A stretch of DNA of 64,000 bases from an uncultured Alphaproteobacteria bacterium (GTDB taxonomy: Bacteria > Pseudomonadota > Alphaproteobacteria > HIMB59 > GCA-002718135): the NCBI GenBank assembly GCA_902635455.1, contig CACPNW010000001.1, positions 5,214 to 69,213 of the forward strand, read 5' to 3'. Of the stretch, positions 35,440-64,000 are shown piece after piece. Every line of letters starts with the position of its first letter. Positions within the stretch are counted from its first letter, which is position 1. Below the pieces are notes generated by a model. It saw only the letters and a program-made list of their open reading frames with translations, had not been told where the DNA came from and did no database searches. Both the position numbers and the translations under genes were made by a program.

Positions 35440-35538
35440 ATGATTATTGTTTGTTTTTTAAGATTTATAATATTATATTATTTTTACTTATTGCACGCAA
35501 AGGCAATAAGTAAATTGATTAAAGGAAACTTTAATTAG
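35440..35538 (+). CDS. candidate 32-codon hydrophobic mini-ORF (leader peptide or small membrane peptide)
   Basis: ATG 35440 to TAG 35536-35538 encodes MIIVCFLRFIILYYFYLLHAKAISKLIKGNFN. It overlaps hairpins 1 and 2 of the structured region and has no clear SD. Confidence 0.25.
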   Translation: MIIVCFLRFIILYYFYLLHAKAISKLIKGNFN

Positions 35539-35600
35539 TTTATATCGGGAGGAAATGCACGATATAGAAGAAAGACCTAGCTTGCTGGGTCTTTTTTTTT
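35483..35600 (+). promoter_or_regulatory. structured RNA element: three stem-loops plus an intrinsic terminator, class unknown
   Basis: Hairpin 1 is 35483-35494/35503-35514 (12 perfect bp, loop ACGCAAAG). Hairpin 2 is 35518-35535 (7 bp, GAAA loop). Hairpin 3 is 35541-35566 (7 bp, loop GGAGGAAATGCA). The terminator then ends 16 nt before the deaminase ATG. Confidence 0.5.
35571..35600 (+). terminator. rho-independent terminator
   Basis: Stem AAAGACCTAG/CTGGGTCTTT with one G-T wobble and loop CTTG, followed by a T run ending at 35600. Confidence 0.7.
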
Positions 35601-36198: not shown

Positions 36199-36232
36199 TC
36201 TACAAATTTGTAATATAAAGATATTTATTATT

Positions 36233-36369
36233 ACGGGAGATACTGCTTTAATGCAGAGCCGAAGGAGCAACGACCCGGAATCTCTCAGGCAAAAGGACCG
36301 TTAAATAGACTCTGGAAAAGAGTTAGGGCTCTACCGAAGGAGTAAAAACTCTCAGGTAAATAGACAGAG
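36233..36369 (+). promoter_or_regulatory. tandem glycine riboswitch
   Basis: Two aptamers each carry the conserved cores: GGGAGA...GCCGAAGGAGCAA...CTCTCAGGCAAAAGGACCG and CTCTGGAAAAGAG...CTACCGAAGGAGTAA...CTCTCAGGTAAATAGACAGAG. They sit directly upstream of gcvT. Confidence 0.9.
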
Positions 36370-55675: not shown

Positions 55676-56086
55676 ATGGCAGATTTTGGAAATACTTTTT
55701 ATTTAATTATTTTTATAATTAATTTACTTGGTTTAATTTATTACGCTTACTTAACTTATTTAAATCCAAAACAATTAATTAATGATTATGAAGCAGGAGA
55801 TGATTCTATTGTATTTATAAGAGTAATAGGTTCATTTGTTTTATCTTATGTTGTAATAGGAATTATTTTACTATTTACTTCAATCAATGGAGCTTGGATC
55901 TATTTTGTATCTGGACTTATGATATCCGCTTTTCAATTAATATATGATCTTGGTTCTAGAATGAAAATAATTGATAGTAATTATAAAGTTATTAATAAAA
56001 ATTCTGATACAATTATAGCTATTTTATTTATTGTTATAAATGTAATTTTAATTTCTGGACTTTCAGATAAGATTTATTATCATTAA
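55676..56086 (+). CDS. 4-TM membrane protein, unknown family (paralog A)
   Basis: 136 aa. It shares the QLIYDL and GLS-x-KIY motifs and its topology with the next gene. Confidence 0.5.
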   Translation: MADFGNTFYLIIFIINLLGLIYYAYLTYLNPKQLINDYEAGDDSIVFIRVIGSFVLSYVVIGIILLFTSINGAWIYFVSGLMISAFQLIYDLGSRMKIIDSNYKVINKNSDTIIAILFIVINVILISGLSDKIYYH

Positions 56087-56109
56087 TAAAATTAATTTTA
56101 AAAAAAAAG

Positions 56110-56134
56110 AGCTGGGTGTTAACTCAGCTTTTTT
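56110..56134. terminator. rho-independent terminator (A-run/T-run flanked)
   Basis: Stem AGCTGGG/CTCAGCT (one G-T wobble) with loop TGTTAA, preceded by A8 and followed by a T run. Confidence 0.65.
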
Positions 56135-56176
56135 AATATTTAATTCATTTTTTTGTTTAATTTAACAAAATTATAA

Positions 56177-56629
56177 TTGGAATTAATTAAGGTAGGTATA
56201 TATAGTATTTATATGATAGAAAATTTTAACAATATTTACTTATTAATTTTACATATTTTAATTCAAATTTTACTTGGTTTTTATCTTATTAGAATAATTT
56301 TTTCTCCAGAAGGAATGGTTAAAGAATTTAATGTAGATAAAAGTGGCATACTTCCAATGAGATATGTTGGAACATTTGCATTTGGTTTAGTTTTTATGGG
56401 AATATATATATTATTTAGACCAAATGGCCCTGAAGGAACTTGGGTATATTATAATTTATTTTTTATCATAACTGGATCTCAATTAATTTATGATTTGTTA
56501 TTCTATTTTAAATTAATAGATAAAGATATAGGTGCTAAAAATAGTCTAGTTGACATTTTTGTTTCAATGTTTGCAACTATTGTATCAATAATATTGATTT
56601 TTGGTCTTTCAAATAAAATTTATATTTAA
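56177..56629 (+). CDS. 4-TM membrane protein, unknown family (paralog B)
   Basis: The ORF track starts at 56177; ATG 56213 (MIENFNN...) is more likely. It carries the same QLIYDL and GLSNKIY motifs as paralog A. Confidence 0.5.
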   Translation: MELIKVGIYSIYMIENFNNIYLLILHILIQILLGFYLIRIIFSPEGMVKEFNVDKSGILPMRYVGTFAFGLVFMGIYILFRPNGPEGTWVYYNLFFIITGSQLIYDLLFYFKLIDKDIGAKNSLVDIFVSMFATIVSIILIFGLSNKIYI

Positions 56630-56640
56630 TTAAAAATTAA

Positions 56641-57063
56641 ATGATAATCATAATTGTTAAATTCATACATTATCTAGCAATTGTTTTTTCTGGCGGTGTT
56701 TTAGTTGGTAGTGGGGTAATTCAATCTGTTTATACTAGAGCAAATCAAATTCCAGATACTCATGTTTCTAGAATATTAAAATTGTTAGGATACTTTGGGT
56801 TAATATCTTTGATTATTTTATGGATAACTGGAATATTATTATCAAATATTATTTATGGAGGTTTTTCTATAAACAGTGCATTTACCATTAAAATGATTGC
56901 AGCAGGTTTACTACTAGGTTTATCTATTTTTGTAAATTTATATGTTTTCAATGTTTCTAACAAAAAAATTCCACCAAATAAAACAATTATGAAAATTGCA
57001 ACAATGAGTGGAAGGGGTTTATTAGTTATAGTTTTAATTGCAGCAGCAACTGCATTTTATTAA
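56641..57063 (+). CDS. 4-TM membrane protein, unknown function
   Basis: 140 aa with four hydrophobic segments and no motif I recognised. Confidence 0.45.
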   Translation: MIIIIVKFIHYLAIVFSGGVLVGSGVIQSVYTRANQIPDTHVSRILKLLGYFGLISLIILWITGILLSNIIYGGFSINSAFTIKMIAAGLLLGLSIFVNLYVFNVSNKKIPPNKTIMKIATMSGRGLLVIVLIAAATAFY

Positions 57064-57073
57064 ATTTTAAAAG

Positions 57074-58141
57074 CTATATTTTTTTTGCTATACTTATTTC
57101 TTTAATATCAGTAATTTTTGTATATCTATCAATCATTTGAGTAGTTTTATGGCCACTCATTTTCATTATTTCATGCGTAGGTACACCATTCATCCTTGCT
57201 TGAGTTATTGATCCAATTCTTAAGCTATGACCTGAAATTTTATTACAATCATTTAAGCCTGCTGCTTCAGCTCTTTTCTTTAAAATTAAAACAAAACTTG
57301 TATCAGTTAAACTTATTTTCTCATTGTTTTCGTTAAGTTCATATTTTCTAATAGAGTTAGCTTTATCAATTCGATAGAAAAGGGGGCCAGTGTTAATCAT
57401 TGATATTTCTAACCAATCATTCAATGCTCTAACTGGACAGTATAATGCCTCTGTATCATCTTTTTTTTGCAAAAATATAACCCTACCTTCACCTTTTTGA
57501 TCTGTTTTAGAAAATGGAATCATAATTTGAATACCTTCGCTATCAAAAGTTAAATGATCATATCTCATGCCAAGTAATTCAGACCTTCTGCAAAAACTAA
57601 AATAACCTACTAATATTAGTGCTTTATCTCTAATATTTTTATAATCATCTTTATTTTCAGGGATTGAGTCTATAATCTGCTCAATATCTTTTCTTAAAAG
57701 CTCTTTTGCTTGTCCAATTTTATTGTTCTTTTCATCTCTAACAATAGCACTAATGGTTTCTGATATGCTTGGATTTTTTCTATCAAACTGAAAACCTCCT
57801 AATCGATATTTGTATGTTATTGATGCTAGTATTCTTTGTATTGTTGAAGCTTTATATGCTGAGGAAGAGTAGGGGTTATTATTTATTTTCTCTCTTCCTG
57901 GAATATTGCTTGAACCCTTAAGTATTTTAGCCTCAGGATCTTCATGTAACCAGTGCATATAGTTTGCTGTCAACGAATAGGCGCTATCTAAGTCATCTAC
58001 CTCTAAAGGTTCACAGTTGTACTTGTTTTTACAATAATCAATAAATTTAAGCCAATCCCCATGATATTTATCTTTTGTATTTTTAGCCTTAGATTTTTCT
58101 CTAAGTTTGCTAACTTTGTCATTTAATGATATTTTAACCAT
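57074..58141 (-). CDS. tyrosine-type site-specific recombinase, Cre-like
   Basis: Catalytic-type residues lie in CRRSEL (Arg), GHSLRIG (HxxR), SGHKT (His) and IDRYT (Tyr). The N-terminal core-binding domain and overall spacing resemble Cre-type recombinases. Confidence 0.88.
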   Translation of the reverse strand: MVKISLNDKVSKLREKSKAKNTKDKYHGDWLKFIDYCKNKYNCEPLEVDDLDSAYSLTANYMHWLHEDPEAKILKGSSNIPGREKINNNPYSSSAYKASTIQRILASITYKYRLGGFQFDRKNPSISETISAIVRDEKNNKIGQAKELLRKDIEQIIDSIPENKDDYKNIRDKALILVGYFSFCRRSELLGMRYDHLTFDSEGIQIMIPFSKTDQKGEGRVIFLQKKDDTEALYCPVRALNDWLEISMINTGPLFYRIDKANSIRKYELNENNEKISLTDTSFVLILKKRAEAAGLNDCNKISGHSLRIGSITQARMNGVPTHEIMKMSGHKTTQMIDRYTKITDIKEISIAKKI

Positions 58142-58150
58142 ATCTATATA

Positions 58151-58174
58151 TTACGATAATTACAGTTATCGTAA
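58151..58174. repeat. 9-6-9 perfect inverted repeat (candidate recombinase core site or operator)
   Basis: TTACGATAA ttacag TTATCGTAA begins 10 nt upstream of the recombinase ATG. The spacer is asymmetric. Confidence 0.5.
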
Positions 58175-58295
58175 ATAATAGTCAAGTTAATATTATTATT
58201 ATATATATTTCAGTAACTTATGATTATTATCTAATTAATATTATCAGACTATAACCTAGATATAGATTTTCACGTGTAATAAAATACTGTATATA

Positions 58296-59030
58296 GTGTG
58301 TAAAATGATAGAATTACCTAAGATTTCTGCGAATTCCCATATCTTTGTATTAACTGGTGCAGGTATAAGTAAAGAGTCTGGTATTGAAACATTTAGAGAT
58401 AATGATAGTCTTTGGAGTAATCATAGAATTCAAGATGTTGCTAGTACTGAGGGATTTGATAGTAACCCTACTCTTGTCTATGATTTTTATAATAAACGTA
58501 GAAAAGAACTAAATTCAGGAATTGAGCCAAATAGGGCTCATATTTTACTTGCTGAATTACAAAAATTATTAAATATCAATATAATAACACAAAATATTGA
58601 TAATTTACATGAGAAAGCAGGAAGTTCATCCATTATTCATATGCATGGAGAGTTAAATAAAGCTAGATGCATTATGAATGATAGTCATGTCTTTAATTGG
58701 TTTGAGGATCTAAATGAGACCCATAGATGCCCTGAATGTAACTATCAAATGCGTCCTCACATTGTGTGGTTTGGTGAGATACCTCTTCAAATGGAAGATA
58801 TTCATGATTTAGCAGAGCAATCTGCCCTCTTCGTCTCAATTGGTACATCCGGTGAAGTTTATCCTGCTGCAGCAGGCTACGTTACTATGTTCAAAGATAT
58901 GCGTAAGCCAACTGTTGAACTAAATTTAGAGCCATCTTGTAATCAAGATCAATTTGATTTTGCAATTCATAAACCTGCAACAGTTGCTATTGAAGAATTT
59001 AAAGATTTATTAATTAAAAATATTAAATAA
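58296..59030 (+). CDS. cobB: NAD-dependent protein deacylase, canonical sirtuin (CobB-like)
   Basis: GAGISKESGIETFR, TQNIDNLH, catalytic His in IHMHGEL, zinc-ribbon remnant RC...CPEC and VWFGE. The likely start is ATG 58305. Confidence 0.85.
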   Translation: MCKMIELPKISANSHIFVLTGAGISKESGIETFRDNDSLWSNHRIQDVASTEGFDSNPTLVYDFYNKRRKELNSGIEPNRAHILLAELQKLLNINIITQNIDNLHEKAGSSSIIHMHGELNKARCIMNDSHVFNWFEDLNETHRCPECNYQMRPHIVWFGEIPLQMEDIHDLAEQSALFVSIGTSGEVYPAAAGYVTMFKDMRKPTVELNLEPSCNQDQFDFAIHKPATVAIEEFKDLLIKNIK

Positions 59031-59095
59031 TTTTTATTAAGGTTATTAAATTTTTTTAAACGATAAAATTTTTTACTAAAATAATGGAATTTGTT

Positions 59096-59500
59096 TTAAT
59101 CTTCTGGTCTGATATCTTTTATTATTAACTCAATATCTAAATCAAAATATCTAATAACTTCTTTGATTTTTCTTATGTGTTTTTCAGAATTACCTTTTCT
59201 GATTAATAATAAAATACCTGGTTTTTTATCTGTTTGAGAGGCATAATATAATGATTGTCCTATTGCCTCATAAACTTTCATACCGTCTGCCCAGTCAACT
59301 TCAAATACATGAGTTTCCGTAAGACAATCTACTCTTGATTTATCTTCTAAAGCATAATCAGCATGACCTGACATTTCTTCACAAAATTTTTCACTATAAT
59401 AAGTTTCTTTCTGAATTGCATAAGATGAAAATGATAGAACGCAAAAAAATAATAATAGAAATATTTTTTTTATGAATTTTATCAAAATTACTTTATTCAA
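59096..59500 (-). CDS. secreted hypothetical protein, possible PD-(D/E)xK-like fold
   Basis: The tracked ORF (to 59599) overlaps the upstream gene. TTG 59500, 1 nt after that gene's TAA, gives a 134-aa protein with signal peptide NKVILIKFIKKIFLLLFFCVLSFSSYA. The mature part contains RVDCLT...FEVDWADGMKVYEAIGQSLYY. Confidence 0.5.
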   Translation of the reverse strand: MNKVILIKFIKKIFLLLFFCVLSFSSYAIQKETYYSEKFCEEMSGHADYALEDKSRVDCLTETHVFEVDWADGMKVYEAIGQSLYYASQTDKKPGILLLIRKGNSEKHIRKIKEVIRYFDLDIELIIKDIRPED

Positions 59501-59501
59501 A

Positions 59502-60125
59502 TTAGTTTCTAAAATTGCAATAAGATTTAGCTTTATCAAAGTCAGTTTTTTTGACTGCCCTGGTATTAATTGGTGCCGGATAAGGTTTAGATTTACCATT
59601 TTTATTCATTAATCTTACCCAAACACTATCTTTATTTATAAAGTAACAAAATTGCTGGTATGGATAATCTATTTTATCTGGTTTAAATTTATAACCGGTA
59701 TAAATATTTGCAATAAAACCATTGGATAAAGTCAATTTTCTATCTTGAAAGACAATAAATTCTTCATTTACTTGATTTGGATTCATTTTATTTTGTTCAT
59801 TAAACTTTTTTTGATCTTTAATTATTTTCTCTAACTTATTAATATCCTCTCTTAAATTATAATTTGTAGTATTATATGTTTGGTCTCCATCAACCTTTAT
59901 AATCTGACTTGGTTTTTCAGTATAGAACCAATAGGCTAAACTTAGTAAAAAAACTAAGAGCCCGAGACTAATTAAAAATAAGGTTATATATATTAAATTT
60001 CTCTTTAAGATTTGAGAAGATCTATAACGACGAATTTGTTTTACACGTCTTTGTTCTTCAATAACAAAATTATTTACAGCACTAAAGTCGCTATCTACAC
60101 TTTCAGGTATGTTTGTTTCATTCAT
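59502..60125 (-). CDS. bitopic membrane protein, unknown function
   Basis: 207 aa with a basic N-terminus (RRVKQIRRYRSSQILKR), a single TM (LIYITLFLISLGLLVFLLSLAYWFY) and a C-terminal domain of about 135 aa. ATGA overlap with the upstream gene. Confidence 0.55.
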   Translation of the reverse strand: MNETNIPESVDSDFSAVNNFVIEEQRRVKQIRRYRSSQILKRNLIYITLFLISLGLLVFLLSLAYWFYTEKPSQIIKVDGDQTYNTTNYNLREDINKLEKIIKDQKKFNEQNKMNPNQVNEEFIVFQDRKLTLSNGFIANIYTGYKFKPDKIDYPYQQFCYFINKDSVWVRLMNKNGKSKPYPAPINTRAVKKTDFDKAKSYCNFRN

Positions 60126-62137
60126 TTACTTTTATCTTTTTTATCTTTTTTGTCGTTATTGCTAATATTTAATAAAGCAGGATCATTTGTATAAACAGGT
60201 ATATGAACAGGTTTTAAAATTGTTTTTTCTTTTATTACTTCGGTTGGAACAATTTTATCGACTGGAACTTCTTTGATAACTTCTTTTACAATAGTATCTA
60301 TTTGTTTTACTGTTTTAGTTTCAACTATTTTTTTGATTCTTGGACGTCTAACAAATCTAAGTACTCTAATTAAGTTTGTGCCTAACATAGAATGTCTTTT
60401 TTCTGGATGAACTGTTCTAAGAACTTCAGAGCCAAAAGCTACAGCTGTTCCTGTCATAGCAACAACTAAAGCCATTGCTCCAAACCAAATAGTTTCTGTG
60501 AAATCCAAACAGTCAGATGATATATCAGCTGCAGATTGAGCAGGAATCAGATTATTATCTTCATCTAGCATTCCACACGATGAATACATCCAAAGAGGGA
60601 TTTTTAGGGCAAAATTATGTATTATAGAACTAGTAGATAGAATATTATATTCATCTTTTAAATCTATGTTGTCAGTTTTTATCTTATTTTTTTGATTTTG
60701 AAGTTCTTCAACTTTCACATTCTGTGTTTCTAAACTTTTGATTTTAGAGTCTCTCTCTTCTTCAATTATATTTTTATTTTTATTAAACTCTTCATTAATA
60801 GTATCGTTTTCCTCATCTATTTTTGAAATTAATTGATCAAATTGAGCACCTGTATTGCTTCTTTCAGAGTTTATAATTTCGATATCATTATCAAATTGCA
60901 CATTTATTTTTTTTATTTCTGTCTCTAAATTAGCTAATTCTTCTCTTACTGACTCCGTGTCCTGTGATATTCTTTTTTCAAGTTCAAGATTTAGATTATC
61001 AATTTCTAAATTTATTGACTTTTCTAAATCAATAAACTCTTTATCAATTTGTTTGAGCTCATTGTTGAATTGACTCTCCGCAATTGAGAGATCCTTTGTT
61101 AAATTGCTTGCAATGATAGAAATATCATTCCTTAATTCAGTAATTTGAATAGAAATTTTATCTTGTCTTTCATTAGACTCAGTTTCTCTTTTTTTAATTC
61201 TACCGCGATAACCCCATTTTTTTTCATCTAGTTCTTTATTAATATAGTTTTGCAGATCTCTTTTTTCATTTTCTAATTGTTTTGTTACATTATTTAAGTT
61301 TTCTTTTTTTGTTGCTTCCTCGTTAGATGCATTAAGTCTTTTATTTGCTATTTTTTGCTCATAATTAAATCTTACCTCATCTTTAGCTTTAGATTTGTTA
61401 GAATTAAGAGAGTTTGTTTGTCCAATTTTATTATTAAGTTTATCTCTCAATAATTGCTGAGCTTCAGAATTAGTTTTTTCTCTTAATTCATCTCTTTTTT
61501 CAATATAAGGTTTTAAAATATCATCTCTTCTATTATTTGCTTCTTTTATTTTATTAACATTTTCATCAAGCCTAGTTGACCTTTTGTCTTCATAGGCATC
61601 TATTCTTTCATTTACTTCATTTAAAGCTAGATCTCTTTGATTCTGAAAAAATAAAAGCTTACTCTGAAAATTTTCATTAATTGAATCTTCATTTAAAAGA
61701 CTAATTTCTTCAATTTTAGTATCAATATTATTTATTTTTGCATAATTTTTTTCTAGTTGATTAAGAAGAACATTTTGTTTTTGAGTCATAAAAGTAGAAT
61801 TTATCTCAAAACCAACTAGCATGGACTCAAATGTAACAAACATTACTATTATTAAAAAAGCTGAACCAACAACTTTCCACCAAATTTTAACAGAACGATA
61901 TATTGATATTACCAAAGGAATTCTACTAAGCTCAATTACACCTATTAAGAAGAATAATAAACCAGAGATGTAACCACCCTTTTTAATGGTCTCTTCCGTT
62001 GATAAACCTGTATCACCAAAAACTAAAAAATAACCAATTGAAAAACTAACCAATGCAGCAATAATTTCAATAGCCCAAGCAATTTTTAGTATCTTGTTTG
62101 CAGTTGAGTGATTAAGGTCTATTGTTGGCCTGCTCAT
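60122..62137 (-). CDS. large polytopic membrane protein with ~400-aa coiled-coil region, unknown function
   Basis: 671 aa. Three N-terminal TM segments are followed by about 400 aa of heptad-like K/E/N/D/L-rich sequence. One or two C-terminal TM segments flank a Cys pair, and the protein ends in a basic, K-rich tail. Confidence 0.6.
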   Translation of the reverse strand: MSRPTIDLNHSTANKILKIAWAIEIIAALVSFSIGYFLVFGDTGLSTEETIKKGGYISGLLFFLIGVIELSRIPLVISIYRSVKIWWKVVGSAFLIIVMFVTFESMLVGFEINSTFMTQKQNVLLNQLEKNYAKINNIDTKIEEISLLNEDSINENFQSKLLFFQNQRDLALNEVNERIDAYEDKRSTRLDENVNKIKEANNRRDDILKPYIEKRDELREKTNSEAQQLLRDKLNNKIGQTNSLNSNKSKAKDEVRFNYEQKIANKRLNASNEEATKKENLNNVTKQLENEKRDLQNYINKELDEKKWGYRGRIKKRETESNERQDKISIQITELRNDISIIASNLTKDLSIAESQFNNELKQIDKEFIDLEKSINLEIDNLNLELEKRISQDTESVREELANLETEIKKINVQFDNDIEIINSERSNTGAQFDQLISKIDEENDTINEEFNKNKNIIEEERDSKIKSLETQNVKVEELQNQKNKIKTDNIDLKDEYNILSTSSIIHNFALKIPLWMYSSCGMLDEDNNLIPAQSAADISSDCLDFTETIWFGAMALVVAMTGTAVAFGSEVLRTVHPEKRHSMLGTNLIRVLRFVRRPRIKKIVETKTVKQIDTIVKEVIKEVPVDKIVPTEVIKEKTILKPVHIPVYTNDPALLNISNNDKKDKKDKSK

Positions 62138-62183
62138 ATTTAGAGCAAAAAACTATCACAACTATAATAATAATAAATAATTA

Positions 62184-62402
62184 TTAATTACAAAATTCAT
62201 CCTTTTGTTGATAGACACATAAGAAAGTTTTTTGCTTTTCTTTTTCAAGCAGTATTAAGTTATTTATTATTCTTTCTTCCTTCATTTTCTCATTATATCC
62301 TTCAAGAAATCCCTGACTAAAACTCATAGCTTCAGTACTACATCCTGACAAATATAATGAAAATATTGAAATTATTAGAAAATATAGAATTTTTTTCTGC
62401 AT
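62184..62402 (-). CDS. small lipoprotein, unknown function
   Basis: 72 aa with a signal peptide carrying the lipobox LSGC. It is the first gene of the minus-strand cluster. Confidence 0.5.
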   Translation of the reverse strand: MQKKILYFLIISIFSLYLSGCSTEAMSFSQGFLEGYNEKMKEERIINNLILLEKEKQKTFLCVYQQKDEFCN

Positions 62403-62593
62403 ATTGTAATCAAATTTATTAATAGTATTAATTTGTCAATATTATGAATGAGTATTGTTTATATCTATTGATAACGTTATCTAATTATTTATGGCATTTT
62501 TAATTCATTAGTTAAGAGGGGTATTTTTATTTTAACATAATATTACCATATTGAATCCATGATTAGGCCCCATTCTTTTTTTATAAATAAAAT

Positions 62594-63445
62594 GTGGGTA
62601 TATACTTGGCTAAAAAGATTATTCTTTTTATTTTATCTCTAATCTTCGTCATTCTTTTACTTAGTGTTGCTAATGCTTCTGCAAAAGAACAGTCTAGTGC
62701 GGAGAAATTACTGGATTCAGTAATTGGATATTATACCCACAACCAAAACCACACTATGCATGCCACAAACTTGGGCTGGGACTTTTATACCAATATCAAA
62801 TACCGCAACTTTGAAATTGCTTACAATTTTACAAGGATTGCCGCAGAAGATAAACATCCCTATGCCATCAATAATTTAGGTGTCATGCATGAAGAAGGCT
62901 ACGCGGTTGATAAGGATGTAAACAAAGCCTTTGACCTATACCTAGAGGCATCTCAACTTCCTGGTGTTCCGTGGTTTGCTTATAGTAATCTTGGCAGATA
63001 TTTTCTGTTGGGAATTGGCAATGTTGACGCCTCCTACGATATGGCTAAGGAACACTTCACTAAAGCAAAAGAGTTAGGTGGAGAAAGAGCTACGACTGCC
63101 AGGATATATTTGCAGTGGCTCGAGGAGAAAGAGAGGTTACCAAATGATTACATGGAACTTGCTCTCTGGATGGAAGAACAAGCAAGTAAATCTAATGATG
63201 TCTTTATTATTCTTGGATGGTTGCTTGATGATTATAATTACGAGAATGCATATGAATGGTTTTATCTTGCCTCTCTGTTTGGAACTACTTTTGACCAGCC
63301 TCGGGCTACTGAAATTACATCAATGTTGGAACAGGAATTTTTAGAACAGGAAACTTTTATGAAAGCAAGACACAAAGCTCTTCGCTGGTTGGCAAATAAC
63401 ATGAATGATGAAGATTTTAAACCATCGGCAGCTTGTCAATCTTAA
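62594..63445 (+). CDS. secreted Sel1-like (TPR-family) repeat protein
   Basis: GTG start and signal peptide ...SVANASA. It has a Sel1-type repeat (YAINNLGVMHEEGYAVDKDVNKAFDLYLEASQ) and further degenerate repeats. G+C is visibly higher than in the backbone. Confidence 0.75.
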   Translation: MGIYLAKKIILFILSLIFVILLLSVANASAKEQSSAEKLLDSVIGYYTHNQNHTMHATNLGWDFYTNIKYRNFEIAYNFTRIAAEDKHPYAINNLGVMHEEGYAVDKDVNKAFDLYLEASQLPGVPWFAYSNLGRYFLLGIGNVDASYDMAKEHFTKAKELGGERATTARIYLQWLEEKERLPNDYMELALWMEEQASKSNDVFIILGWLLDDYNYENAYEWFYLASLFGTTFDQPRATEITSMLEQEFLEQETFMKARHKALRWLANNMNDEDFKPSAACQS

Positions 63446-63453
63446 GTGAATCT

Positions 63454-64000
63454 GTGTTGTCTTTTACTCGAAACAGATATCATTCTTTTTGTATTGCTAT
63501 AGTTCTTTTACTATCGCTCTTTTCTTTACCAATTAAAGCCCATCCTCACCCTCATGAAGATCCTTACCCTGATTGGCACAATCTCTCTAATGACTTTTAT
63601 TGTTCTATCTACAGTTCCTATATTAAACAAAACAAATTAATTTCCTCTATTCAATTTAACTATTGGAAAAAACCCAGTAATAATCCTATACAACTTCAAG
63701 TTTATTTTCCTGACATTATTGATTATCAAAAACCATCTGAACTTAAAATCTTTCTAAACAACGGTAAGTCTGTAAAACATCCCATGTTTACCATAGACCG
63801 TTTTGAGCGAAGTATTTGGCTCCTTAATAATAATGAAGAAGAAATACTCACTACTTTAATGAAGGCTAGACTAATTACAGTTTCAGCTATTGGAAGAAGT
63901 GGGAAAGAATATTTATTGAAGTTTGGCGTGTATCCTAAAAAGTTTATGAAAGAAAAAGAATGGCTATATAATTGCATGGAGAGAGATAAAAATCAATTAA
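63454..64000 (+). CDS. secreted hypothetical protein, 5' part (runs off the window); not in the supplied ORF track
   Basis: The frame is open from GTG 63454 / TTG 63457 to the window end. It encodes signal peptide SFTRNRYHSFCIAIVLLLSLFSLPIKA, then HPHPHEDPYPDWHN... The listed antisense ORF 63726-63977 is probably spurious. Confidence 0.5.
   Translation, partial: MLSFTRNRYHSFCIAIVLLLSLFSLPIKAHPHPHEDPYPDWHNLSNDFYCSIYSSYIKQNKLISSIQFNYWKKPSNNPIQLQVYFPDIIDYQKPSELKIFLNNGKSVKHPMFTIDRFERSIWLLNNNEEEILTTLMKARLITVSAIGRSGKEYLLKFGVYPKKFMKEKEWLYNCMERDKNQL

What the first reader, a model, noticed from the sequence alone, without database searches (positions are those of the whole stretch)
57074..64000. Mosaic genomic island beginning at a Cre-like tyrosine recombinase
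Up to 57063 the window is conserved-looking housekeeping backbone. From 57074 the content switches to a recombinase and then a sirtuin. After these come the unknown envelope proteins, a Sel1-repeat protein and a His-rich secreted protein. Composition is mosaic. My hand counts give 26-27 G+C per 60 nt inside the sirtuin and Sel1 genes, against 7 per 60 in a nearby backbone stretch. The four-gene operon, by contrast, is host-like AT-rich. No tRNA is adjacent to the recombinase, so the integration target is not the usual tRNA 3' end. The right boundary lies outside the window.
Basis: partly seen in the sequence, partly recalled or inferred. Interest (0 to 1): 0.6.

Follow-up and report, generated by a model that had tools for sequence, protein, structure and literature searches.

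The report
Conserved recombinase site bordering flexible island
A variable gene island is really there, but the recombinase and sirtuin are conserved host genes, and the variable DNA starts exactly at a small, perfectly conserved palindrome beside the recombinase gene, which looks like a recombination hotspot in an abundant SAR11-type marine bacterium.

Summary
Its anatomy differs from the proposal. The Cre-like tyrosine recombinase (57074-58141) and the CobB-type sirtuin (58305-59030) are not island cargo. They sit side by side in all 24 related loci that hold enough DNA on both sides, down to 68% recombinase identity. Between them lies a palindrome, TTACGATAA-TTACAG-TTATCGTAA (58151-58174). 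Its 22-bp core is invariant in 20 diverse loci, where no other stretch exceeds 8 bp. Gene content is unrelated in every genome only beyond the sirtuin, from 59031. Sequence linkage breaks exactly at the palindrome. Contigs 99.9% identical to the window on the left fall to about 80% from 58188. Other pairs show the reverse pattern, and metagenome contigs pile up their ends there. No second site, tRNA or direct repeat was found. Only the Sel1 gene and the 3' end are clearly foreign in composition. Best reading: a host recombinase and its lox/dif-like site form the fixed border and crossover point of a flexible island. An open possibility is that this is SAR11's unrecognised chromosome-dimer-resolution system. 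Strand asymmetries change sign across the site, but this is not conclusive.

The parts
57074..58141 (-). Cre-like tyrosine recombinase, 355 aa. A conserved host gene, and probably the ortholog of HTCC1062 SAR11_1019, which is annotated 'xerD'.
   Evidence: PF00589 hit. Cre is the top PDB hit by sequence and by fold. R185, K212, H305, R308, H331 and Y340 are invariant in 28 homologs. 3295 homologs of 352-355 aa. Found in 50 of 50 loci with at least 1.1 kb left of the site. No phage relative above 28% identity. It lies ten ORFs from the metY-like gene, against 11 locus tags between SAR11_1019 and metY SAR11_1030 in HTCC1062 (PMC5069961).
58151..58174 (.). lox/dif-like palindrome. Arms TTACGATAA (58151-58159) and TTATCGTAA (58166-58174) flank the asymmetric 6-bp spacer TTACAG (58160-58165). 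Proposed binding and crossover site of the recombinase.
   Evidence: Unique in the window; 0 matches expected by chance. The 22-bp core 58152-58173 is the longest invariant run among 20 diverse loci; the next longest is 8 bp. The spacer is invariant in all 57 loci, which were collected through or aligned on this core. Arms are 8-9 bp in most loci, 10-11 in three and 15 in three. It always sits about 10 nt upstream of the recombinase start. Linkage breakpoints map to -3..+34 around it.
58175..58187 (-). Conserved extension of the site block. It contains AGTCAA (58180-58185), which read on the minus strand is TTGACT, a -35-like hexamer for the recombinase gene. The matching -10-like AATTAT lies inside the palindrome.
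   Evidence: Promoter scan. Alignment of the intergenic regions.
58188..58261 (.). Hypervariable AT-rich spacer. This is the first DNA of the exchangeable right-hand haplotype.
   Evidence: Only 4% invariant columns in the 58200-58249 bin. The first W versus L001 difference after the site is at 58188. L084 and L085 differ by a 49-bp indel here.
58262..58299 (+). Conserved block ATAGATTTTCACGTGTAATAAAATACTGTATATAGTGT, the probable sirtuin promoter (TTCACG, 17 nt, TATAGT).
58305..59030 (+). Sir2/CobB-type NAD-dependent deacylase. Its position is conserved, but its alleles are unlinked from the left flank.
   Evidence: PF02146 E 6e-44. NCBIfam Sir2 deacetylase families. No PADLOC defence hit. Present in 24 of 24 loci with enough right flank. 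Only 79% amino-acid identity to the L001 copy, although the recombinases are 100% identical.
59096..62402 (-). Four-gene cargo operon: a 72-aa lipoprotein-like product, a 671-aa membrane and coiled-coil protein, a 207-aa protein and a 136-167-aa protein. Function unknown. It is a rare mobile module.
   Evidence: No Pfam, NCBIfam, PADLOC or PHROG hits. The 671-aa protein has only 6 relatives in 5.8 billion sequences. The same module occurs on L155 and L156 (77% nt over 59129-62342). A 46%-identical version sits on L157 beside a 327-aa integrase (only a 39-residue, 41% match to this recombinase) and a tmRNA.
62594..63445 (+). Secreted Sel1-repeat protein. Compositionally foreign cargo.
   Evidence: PF08238. 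GC 0.383 and third-position GC 0.349, against about 0.13 in backbone.
63442..64000 (+). 5' part of a secreted protein with an HPHPH motif; it runs off the window. Cargo.
   Evidence: Translation. GC 0.345 in the last kilobase.
55676..57063 (+). Three paralogous small membrane proteins (136, 150 and 140 aa). They form the semi-conserved left flank of the recombinase.
   Evidence: Families F2 and F3 occur in 9-11 loci, with insertions between them in other species.

Best explanation
The locus is a host-encoded, catalytically intact Cre-like tyrosine recombinase with its own recombination site, in an AT-rich SAR11-type marine alphaproteobacterium. The site is a palindrome of two 9-bp arms around the 6-bp spacer TTACAG. 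It lies in the recombinase's own promoter region, between the recombinase gene and a divergently transcribed sirtuin gene.

The recombinase and the site belong to the conserved chromosome. They form the fixed left border of a flexible genomic island.

Proposed mechanism. Two recombinase monomers bind the arms and cut on either side of the spacer. Strand exchange with a second copy of the same site, carried on DNA from another lineage, joins the resident left side to a foreign right side. That right side comprises the spacer, a sirtuin allele and the island cargo. A second, homologous crossover further right would complete the swap.

Shown here: the site's extreme conservation, its fixed position, intact catalytic residues, independent left and right phylogenies, and breakpoints confined to the site block.

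Inferred: binding, cleavage positions, the nature of the partner DNA, and the second crossover.
For: 1. Synteny. Recombinase plus sirtuin flank the site in 5 GTDB species representatives and in many metagenome contigs. Everything beyond the sirtuin is almost entirely singleton genes.
2. Conservation. The 22-bp core is invariant in 20 diverse loci, while coding DNA nearby never exceeds 8 invariant bases. The spacer and its orientation are invariant in all 57 loci, which were collected through or aligned on that core.
3. Sharp linkage break. The window matches L001 at 99.9% from 55697 to 58187. Identity then falls to about 80% through the sirtuin and to nothing after 59040.
   - W, L001 and L002 share the left side but have three different right sides, 81-84% identical to each other.
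   - L146, L147 and L148 differ by 0.2-0.3% on the left and 26% on the right.
   - The reverse also occurs: L022 and L042 are 17% diverged up to position -3, then identical for 450 bp.
   - The intersection of the breakpoint intervals is -3..+34, which is the conserved block itself.
4. Change-point scan with the spacer masked. 44 of 62 heterogeneous pairs break in the bins that touch the site.
5. Contig ends. 21 of 57 loci end within 183 bp to the right of the site, and two more contigs end inside it.
6. The catalytic residues R, K, H, R, H, Y are invariant, and Cre is the closest solved fold.
7. Chimeric assembly is unlikely. Several discordant contigs carry k119-k141 labels in their names, taken here as the assembly k-mer size. 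That exceeds the roughly 37 bp shared by diverged haplotypes.
8. From my own knowledge, not checked here: SAR11 lacks mutS and mutL. Homologous exchange between diverged DNA should then leave scattered breakpoints, not breakpoints funnelled to one 37-bp block.
Against: - No biochemical evidence for binding or cleavage.
- Only one site was seen per locus, so the partner site and the form of the donor DNA are unknown.
- The conserved block also matches a -35/-10 promoter for the recombinase. Promoter or operator function could therefore explain part of its conservation, including the spacer.
- The block is the longest identical stretch between diverged alleles, so homologous recombination would also tend to resolve there.
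- Some breakpoints lie elsewhere, for example inside the sirtuin gene at +346 in L132 versus L133.
- The pairs compared are not phylogenetically independent.
Confidence: 0.55

Rival explanations
1. A replacement-type flexible island maintained only by homologous recombination. On this view the palindrome is the recombinase promoter plus an autoregulatory operator. Crossovers land there only because it is the one stretch identical between diverged alleles.
For: A promoter-like -35 TTGACT and a -10 AATTAT overlap the palindrome. The block is the longest invariant run. Homologous-exchange patches exist nearby: 13 differences clustered at +450..650 in L022/L042 and a break at +346 in L132/L133. 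Replacement islands driven by homologous recombination are described for aquatic bacteria (PMC4033161, listed).
Against: 22-37 bp is short for an efficient homologous crossover. A promoter or operator does not need 22 invariant bases across lineages whose flanking genes are 75-80% identical. This view gives no reason why a streamlined genome keeps a catalytically intact recombinase. Divergence does not decay gradually into the left flank; it steps from 0.1% to about 20%.
Confidence: 0.25
2. The recombinase and palindrome are primarily a chromosome-dimer-resolution module, with a single recombinase and a dif-like site as in XerS/difSL or XerH/difH. The flexible island is a by-product of lying next to dif at the replication terminus. 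This is compatible with the best explanation rather than exclusive of it.
For: P. ubique is reported to lack any dif/Xer system (PMC2731167). That paper lists the dif hallmarks: intergenic, palindromic, a central hexanucleotide, and in single-recombinase systems a position next to the recombinase gene. All of these are met here. The protein is 355 aa, like XerS at 356 aa. The gene behaves as a core gene. Gene orientation and third-position GC and AT skews change sign across the site: 43+/16- versus 31+/39- families, Fisher p = 0.0013; GC3 +0.020 versus -0.024; AT3 -0.016 versus +0.012. The left flank replicates toward the site. The probable HTCC1062 ortholog is induced together with recA in stationary phase (PMC5069961).
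Against: The right-side skews are not significantly below zero, so foreign DNA that has not equilibrated explains them equally well. The sirtuin's own skews point in conflicting directions. NCBIfam XerC, XerD and XerA scores are 36-47 bits against cut-offs of 220-335. Recombination between sister chromosomes does not by itself explain swapped haplotypes. Chromosome position could not be measured.
Confidence: 0.3
3. One reading: an integrative mobile island whose own integrase is its first gene, inserted at a non-tRNA target at 57064-57073.
For: The recombinase gene borders variable DNA. In other species, 0.6-kb or 1.5-kb insertions sit between the recombinase gene and the 140-aa ORF. The recombinase and sirtuin have slightly raised third-position GC.
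Against: The recombinase is conserved together with the backbone and independently of island content. Its family shows a smooth identity decay typical of vertical descent. No direct repeats or second site occur within 10 kb in any locus. It has no phage or viral-contig relatives.
Confidence: 0.04
4. An integron-like platform: an integrase plus an attI-like site that captures promoterless cassettes.
For: A conserved integrase with an adjacent site, followed by variable genes. IntI appears among the fold matches.
Against: The first gene after the site is a conserved sirtuin with its own promoter. No attC-like or half-site repeats separate the cargo genes. Cargo includes multi-gene operons on both strands. 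No integron-integrase family hit.
Confidence: 0.03

Closest known systems
Cre/loxP of phage P1 and its relatives (Dre/rox, Vika/vox, VCre/VloxP; these names are from my own knowledge)
   Same: A simple two-domain tyrosine recombinase of about 350 aa. Cre is the best solved match by sequence and fold. A short palindromic site with an asymmetric spacer lies next to the gene, and no accessory-protein genes are evident.
   Different: 18% identity to Cre. The spacer is 6 bp, not 8. Arms are 9 bp (up to 15), not 13. It is chromosomal and vertically conserved in a free-living bacterium, not carried on a phage or plasmid. Only one site is seen per locus.
Single-recombinase Xer systems: XerS/difSL (streptococci), XerH/difH (Helicobacter, Campylobacter), XerA/dif (archaea)
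   Same: One recombinase of about 355 aa encoded immediately next to a single intergenic palindrome with a hexanucleotide centre, forming a conserved two-part module in the chromosome (PMC2731167). XerA and XerH are the next-best folds after Cre.
   Different: Not a sequence member of any Xer family. Location at the terminus is not shown. The population-level haplotype swapping seen at this site is not a described property of dif.
Flexible (replacement) genomic islands and hypervariable regions of SAR11
   Same: The same chromosomal position holds unrelated gene sets in different strains, assemblies break there, and the cargo is rare or unknown genes. A SAR11 study notes a single integrase associated with one island, GI-35 (PMC11796062).
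   Different: This locus is not one of the four classical HVRs of HTCC1062 (HVR1 around SAR11_0047-0054, HVR2 genes 523-568, HVR3 genes SAR11_1162-1171; HVR4's genes were not retrieved), if the SAR11_1019 orthology holds. The border here is a recombinase site, not a tRNA or rRNA gene. Divergence steps abruptly at that site instead of decaying through the flank.
Elements that integrate at dif using Xer recombinases (IMEX: CTXphi and TLC in Vibrio, the gonococcal genetic island; from my own knowledge)
   Same: Variable foreign DNA accumulates directly beside a host recombinase's chromosomal site.
   Different: Those elements are flanked by two dif-like sites. No second site was found here within 10 kb.

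Membership tests
Tyrosine recombinase superfamily (PF00589) | Catalytic-domain match above the curated threshold | tested here: met
   55 bits against a cut-off of 27.1, covering residues 148-344.
Tyrosine recombinase superfamily (PF00589) | Catalytic residues R-K-H-R-H/W-Y present | tested here: met
   R185, K212, H305, R308, H331 and Y340 are invariant in 28 homologs. R185, H305, R308 and Y340 align with conserved R, H, R and Y positions of Cre; Cre's residue numbering was not checked here.
Cre/lox-type system | Cre-like fold of both domains | tested here: inconclusive
   Cre chains are the top 30 Foldseek hits (E 5e-10, TM 0.46-0.53). However, the N-terminal domain of the model has pLDDT 40-60.
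Cre/lox-type system | 34-bp site of 13-bp inverted arms around an 8-bp asymmetric spacer | tested here: not met
   The site has 9-bp arms (8-15 across loci) and a 6-bp spacer.
Cre/lox-type system | Recombination between two copies of the site without accessory factors | not testable with these tools
   Only population-level breakpoint evidence is available.
Xer/dif chromosome-dimer resolution (single-recombinase type) | Recombinase belongs to the XerC, XerD, XerA, XerS or XerH family | tested here: not met
   XerD 47 bits against 330, XerA 47 against 220, XerC 36 against 335. Among PDB sequences only XerD gives a marginal hit, E 0.18.
Xer/dif chromosome-dimer resolution (single-recombinase type) | Single intergenic palindrome with a 6-bp centre, adjacent to the recombinase gene | tested here: met
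   The criteria are taken from PMC2731167.
Xer/dif chromosome-dimer resolution (single-recombinase type) | Site lies at the replication terminus (GC-skew switch) | tested here: inconclusive
   The left flank shows a leading-strand signature pointing toward the site. Gene orientation, GC3 skew and AT3 skew all change sign across the site, but the right-side confidence intervals include 0.
Xer/dif chromosome-dimer resolution (single-recombinase type) | One copy per chromosome, universal in a lineage that lacks XerCD | not testable with these tools
   No complete genomes were accessible. The literature states that P. ubique lacks dif/Xer and that a SAR11 genomospecies has one island-associated integrase.
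Integron | attC-type repeats between cassettes, and a cassette array starting at attI | tested here: not met
   No repeated sites. The first gene after the site is a conserved sirtuin with its own promoter.
Classical integrative island or prophage | The integrase travels with the island; attL/attR direct repeats; tRNA or tmRNA target | tested here: not met
   The integrase is linked to the backbone, not to the cargo. No repeats within 10 kb. No tRNA nearby.
Flexible genomic island (SAR11-type) | Same position between conserved genes, with different gene content in each strain | tested here: met
   The left border is conserved in all loci. Right-border genes are shared by L006 and L007 about 8 kb from the site. 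Almost all cargo genes are singletons.
Flexible genomic island (SAR11-type) | Drop in metagenomic read recruitment over the island | not testable with these tools
   The only proxy is the pile-up of contig ends at the site.

The most novel reading that the evidence does not exclude
The recombinase (SAR11_1019 family) and its 8-6-8 palindrome are the chromosome-dimer-resolution system that SAR11 has been reported to lack. It would be a further independent single-recombinase, dif-type module, of Cre-like rather than Xer ancestry, sitting at the replication terminus. Its site would double as the point where flexible genes are exchanged between SAR11 lineages.
Probability: 0.3. Interest if true: 0.8.

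Novelty: new variant of a known kind. Interest (0 to 1): 0.62.

Why it matters
SAR11 is the most abundant bacterial group in the ocean. Its genomes are described as free of canonical mobile elements (PMC11796062), yet its gene pool is very open. How flexible genes move in it is unresolved, and homologous recombination is the usual explanation.

A conserved, catalytically intact recombinase with a perfectly conserved site exactly at a linkage break suggests that site-specific recombination by a host enzyme also shapes at least one island.

The same module could fill the gap left by the reported absence of dif/Xer in Pelagibacter (PMC2731167). That would make a 2009 open question directly testable, using a defined 34-bp site and a 355-aa protein.

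A practical consequence: the site explains a recurrent assembly break in marine metagenomes. It also defines a new small recombinase/site pair of possible use as a tool.

Tried and rejected
1. Reaching beyond 64000. Exact look-ups of the Sel1 protein, the 671-aa protein and the sirtuin found no accessible contig. The cluster table shows a 118-kb source contig that could not be fetched. The right boundary in this genome therefore stays unknown.

2. A second copy of the site. None with up to 6 of 24 mismatches in 33 loci. Half-site plus spacer matches are not enriched: 116 found against about 148 in shuffles. No meaningful direct or inverted repeats in 56500-64000.

3. Viral origin. The site is absent from IMG/VR. 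The recombinase has no relatives there, and GenBank phages reach at most 28% identity.

4. Defence-system reading of the sirtuin or the cargo. No PADLOC hits.

5. Terminus test. Codon-third-position skews and gene orientation are suggestive but not decisive. The literature gave no usable origin or terminus coordinates for HTCC1062.

6. Direct proof of orthology to SAR11_1019. Only gene-order inference was possible.

7. Taxonomy. The related single-cell genomes are labelled only 'uncultured Alphaproteobacteria' and appear in no searchable paper. The SAR11 assignment rests on the glycine riboswitch upstream of the glycine-cleavage genes, the low GC content and the gene-order match.

8. The looser metagenome pattern returned many unrelated palindromes. 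Only the 24 hits with the TTACAG spacer were relevant.

Full report
**What is in the sequence**

The window is AT-rich, with GC near 0.25 per kilobase. Up to about 57 kb it carries ordinary chromosomal genes: gyrA, uvrA, mfd, recG, the glycine-cleavage genes behind a glycine riboswitch, and a metY-like gene.

- 57074-58141 (-) encodes a 355-aa tyrosine recombinase (PF00589). Cre is its closest solved relative by sequence (E 2e-5). Cre is also closest by predicted fold, ahead of XerA, XerH and IntI. The Xer family models score far below their cut-offs.
- 58305-59030 (+) is a CobB-type Sir2 deacylase. It has no defence-system signature.
- 59096-62402 (-) holds four unknown genes.
- 62594-63445 (+) is a Sel1-repeat protein.
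- A secreted HPHPH protein runs off the end of the window.
- The nearest tRNA is at 18.5 kb.

**Composition**

Third-position GC per gene is as follows:

| Gene or region | Third-position GC |
|---|---|
| Backbone | about 0.13 |
| Recombinase | 0.199 |
| Sirtuin | 0.188 |
| Four-gene operon | 0.156-0.178 |
| Sel1 | 0.349 |

Only Sel1 and the last kilobase are clearly foreign.

**Comparison with relatives**

The exact recombinase protein occurs on metagenome contigs. Five GTDB species representatives carry relatives with 83-91% identity. All five are marine single-cell or metagenome-assembled genomes labelled "uncultured Alphaproteobacteria".

In all of them the recombinase and the sirtuin are adjacent and divergently transcribed. 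DNA similarity to the window stops just past the sirtuin stop codon. A gene-family map over 20 or more loci gives this picture:

- The left flank is semi-conserved: small membrane-protein paralogs, a YbaK-like editing domain, EamA, an oxidoreductase, MFS, AsnC and metY.
- Beyond the sirtuin, and in five loci a 151-155-aa ORF after it, almost every gene is a singleton. Examples are an Eco57I-type restriction-modification system with a UvrD helicase in L131, a TRAP transporter in L129, and a 2135-aa protein in L004.
- L006 and L007 share right-border genes about 8 kb from the site, so the island is about 7 kb there.

Of 57 loci carrying the site, 50 of 50 with enough left flank have the recombinase. 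24 of 24 with enough right flank have the sirtuin. The arrangement persists at 68% recombinase identity.

The recombinase family has 3295 relatives. Over the 120 listed, identity falls smoothly from 91% to 65% and length stays uniform at 352-355 aa. It has no phage relatives. This is how a vertically inherited host gene behaves.

**The site**

The 154-bp intergenic region has four parts:

1. A conserved block, 58151-58187.
2. A hypervariable AT-rich spacer.
3. A second conserved block that looks like the sirtuin promoter.
4. The sirtuin start codon.

The first block contains TTACGATAA-TTACAG-TTATCGTAA. Among 20 diverse loci its 22-bp core is invariant, and the next-longest invariant run in 2 kb is 8 bp. 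The asymmetric spacer, and its orientation relative to the recombinase gene, are invariant in all 57 loci. Those loci were collected through or aligned on this core. In three loci the arms extend to a perfect 15 bp.

A degenerate metagenome scan returned 24 hits with this spacer. All lie about 10 nt upstream of a recombinase start. Hits with other spacers are unrelated palindromes.

Read on the minus strand, the block also matches a -35 TTGACT and a -10 AATTAT for the recombinase gene. Promoter or operator function is therefore a competing reason for its conservation.

**The linkage break**

- Contig L001 is 99.9% identical to the window from 55697 to 58187. From 58188 identity drops to about 80% through the sirtuin, and to nothing after 59040.
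- W, L001 and L002 share one left haplotype (at least 99.7% identical) joined to three right haplotypes that are 81-84% identical to each other.
- L146, L147 and L148 are a second independent case: 0.2-0.3% divergence on the left against 26% on the right.
- L136 against W is a third.
- The opposite pattern also occurs. L022 and L042 are 17% diverged up to position -3, then identical for 450 bp including the "hypervariable" spacer. L002 shares its right side at 95% with L005 and L084, whose left sides are 77-83% identical to it.
- The breakpoint intervals intersect at -3..+34 relative to 58153, which is the conserved block.
- With the spacer masked, 44 of 62 strongly heterogeneous pairs have their change point in the bins touching the site.
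- Metagenome contigs end there in bulk: 21 of 57 loci stop within 183 bp to the right of the site, and two more end inside it.
- Chimeric assembly is unlikely. Several of the discordant contigs carry k119-k141 labels in their names, taken here as the assembly k-mer size. That is longer than the roughly 37 bp shared by diverged haplotypes.

**What was not found**

- No second copy of the site within 10 kb in any locus.
- No enrichment of half-sites.
- No direct repeats.
- No cassette-type repeats.

The classical island model and the integron model are therefore not supported.

**Interpretation**

The recombinase is an intact enzyme: R185, K212, H305, R308, H331 and Y340 are invariant. It is kept in a streamlined genome, with a site conserved far beyond its surroundings, and that site coincides with a population-level crossover hotspot.

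I conclude that a host recombinase and its lox/dif-like site form the fixed border of a flexible island. Site-specific exchange at the site most likely contributes to swapping the right-hand segment, which comprises the spacer, a sirtuin allele and the cargo. Confidence is 0.55.

The main rival is homologous recombination funnelled into the only identical stretch, with the palindrome acting as promoter and operator (0.25). Sequence data alone cannot exclude it.

**A possible dif-type role**

Carnoy and Roten reported that P. ubique has no dif/Xer system (PMC2731167). They list these dif hallmarks: intergenic, palindromic, a hexanucleotide centre, and in single-recombinase systems a position adjacent to the recombinase gene. 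All are met here.

HTCC1062 has a gene annotated "xerD", SAR11_1019. It lies 11 locus tags from metY, SAR11_1030. In this window the recombinase lies ten ORFs from the metY-like gene, which is about the same spacing. SAR11_1019 is induced about 8-fold, together with recA, in stationary phase (PMC5069961). Orthology is inferred from gene order only.

Replication-linked asymmetries change sign across the site after de-duplication by gene family:

| Measure | Left of site | Right of site | Test |
|---|---|---|---|
| Gene families on + / - strand | 43 / 16 | 31 / 39 | Fisher p = 0.0013 |
| Third-position GC skew | +0.020 | -0.024 | P = 0.064 |
| Third-position AT skew | -0.016 | +0.012 | P = 0.031 |

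The right-side values are not significantly different from zero, as foreign DNA would also give. The sirtuin's own skews conflict with each other. Location at the terminus is therefore possible but not shown. I put this reading at about 0.3.

**Relation to the literature**

I found no paper describing this site or this role. A SAR11 population study notes that only one integrase was found, associated with island GI-35 (PMC11796062). That may be this locus.

If the SAR11_1019 orthology holds, the locus is not one of Wilhelm's HVR1-3. Those lie at other HTCC1062 locus tags: HVR1 around SAR11_0047-0054, HVR2 at genes 523-568, and HVR3 at SAR11_1162-1171. HVR4's genes were not retrieved.

**Verdict**

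The island is real, but it begins at 58188 by sequence and at 59031 by gene content, not at 57074. The recombinase and sirtuin are conserved host genes.

Noticed in passing
window 59096-62402; L155, L156, L157: The four-gene cargo operon (lipoprotein-like 72 aa, 671 aa, 207 aa, about 136 aa) is a rare mobile module. The 671-aa protein has only 6 relatives in 5.8 billion sequences. The module recurs at 77% nt identity on two other contigs. A 46%-identical version sits beside a different 327-aa integrase (only a 39-residue, 41% match to this recombinase) next to a permuted tmRNA gene in L157.
   Followed up: partly
window about 56420-56440 (inside the 150-aa ORF 56177-56629): A second pile-up of metagenome contig ends lies about 1.71-1.75 kb left of the site. 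Relatives carry insertions between the small membrane-protein paralogs (an AhpC-like 178-aa gene). Between the recombinase and the 140-aa ORF they carry a 172-aa ORF or a 491-496-aa DUF1485/MlrC gene. The left flank is therefore mildly flexible too.
   Followed up: partly
window 58188-58261: The AT-rich spacer between the two conserved promoter blocks is almost randomised between lineages. It also varies in length, with a 49-bp indel between L084 and L085, whose left flanks are 99.5% identical.
   Followed up: partly
window 58262-58299: The conserved block upstream of the sirtuin contains the palindrome CACGTG within TTTTCACGTGTAA, in addition to -35/-10-like hexamers. It may be a regulator-binding site.
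   Followed up: no
window 35487-35566 and 36224-36310: An IMES-4 RNA motif (100 bits) lies just upstream of a 199-aa ORF. A glycine riboswitch precedes the glycine-cleavage genes.
   Followed up: no
window 62594-63445: The Sel1-repeat gene is the strongest compositional outlier in the window: GC 0.383 and third-position GC 0.349, against about 0.13. Its exact product is not on record in the accessible contig collection.
   Followed up: partly
L131 1-8524; L004 1565-7972: Other versions of the island carry defence-type cargo: an Eco57I-like enzyme, a DNA methylase, a UvrD-family helicase and DUF2779. One carries a single 2135-aa ORF.
   Followed up: no
window 57109-57122 (minus strand), at the 3' end of the recombinase gene: A weak match to the left arm plus spacer (TACAAAAATTACTG, 3 mismatches) recurs at the same position in several loci. 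It lies in conserved coding sequence (YTKITD), and matches of this quality are expected by chance.
   Followed up: yes
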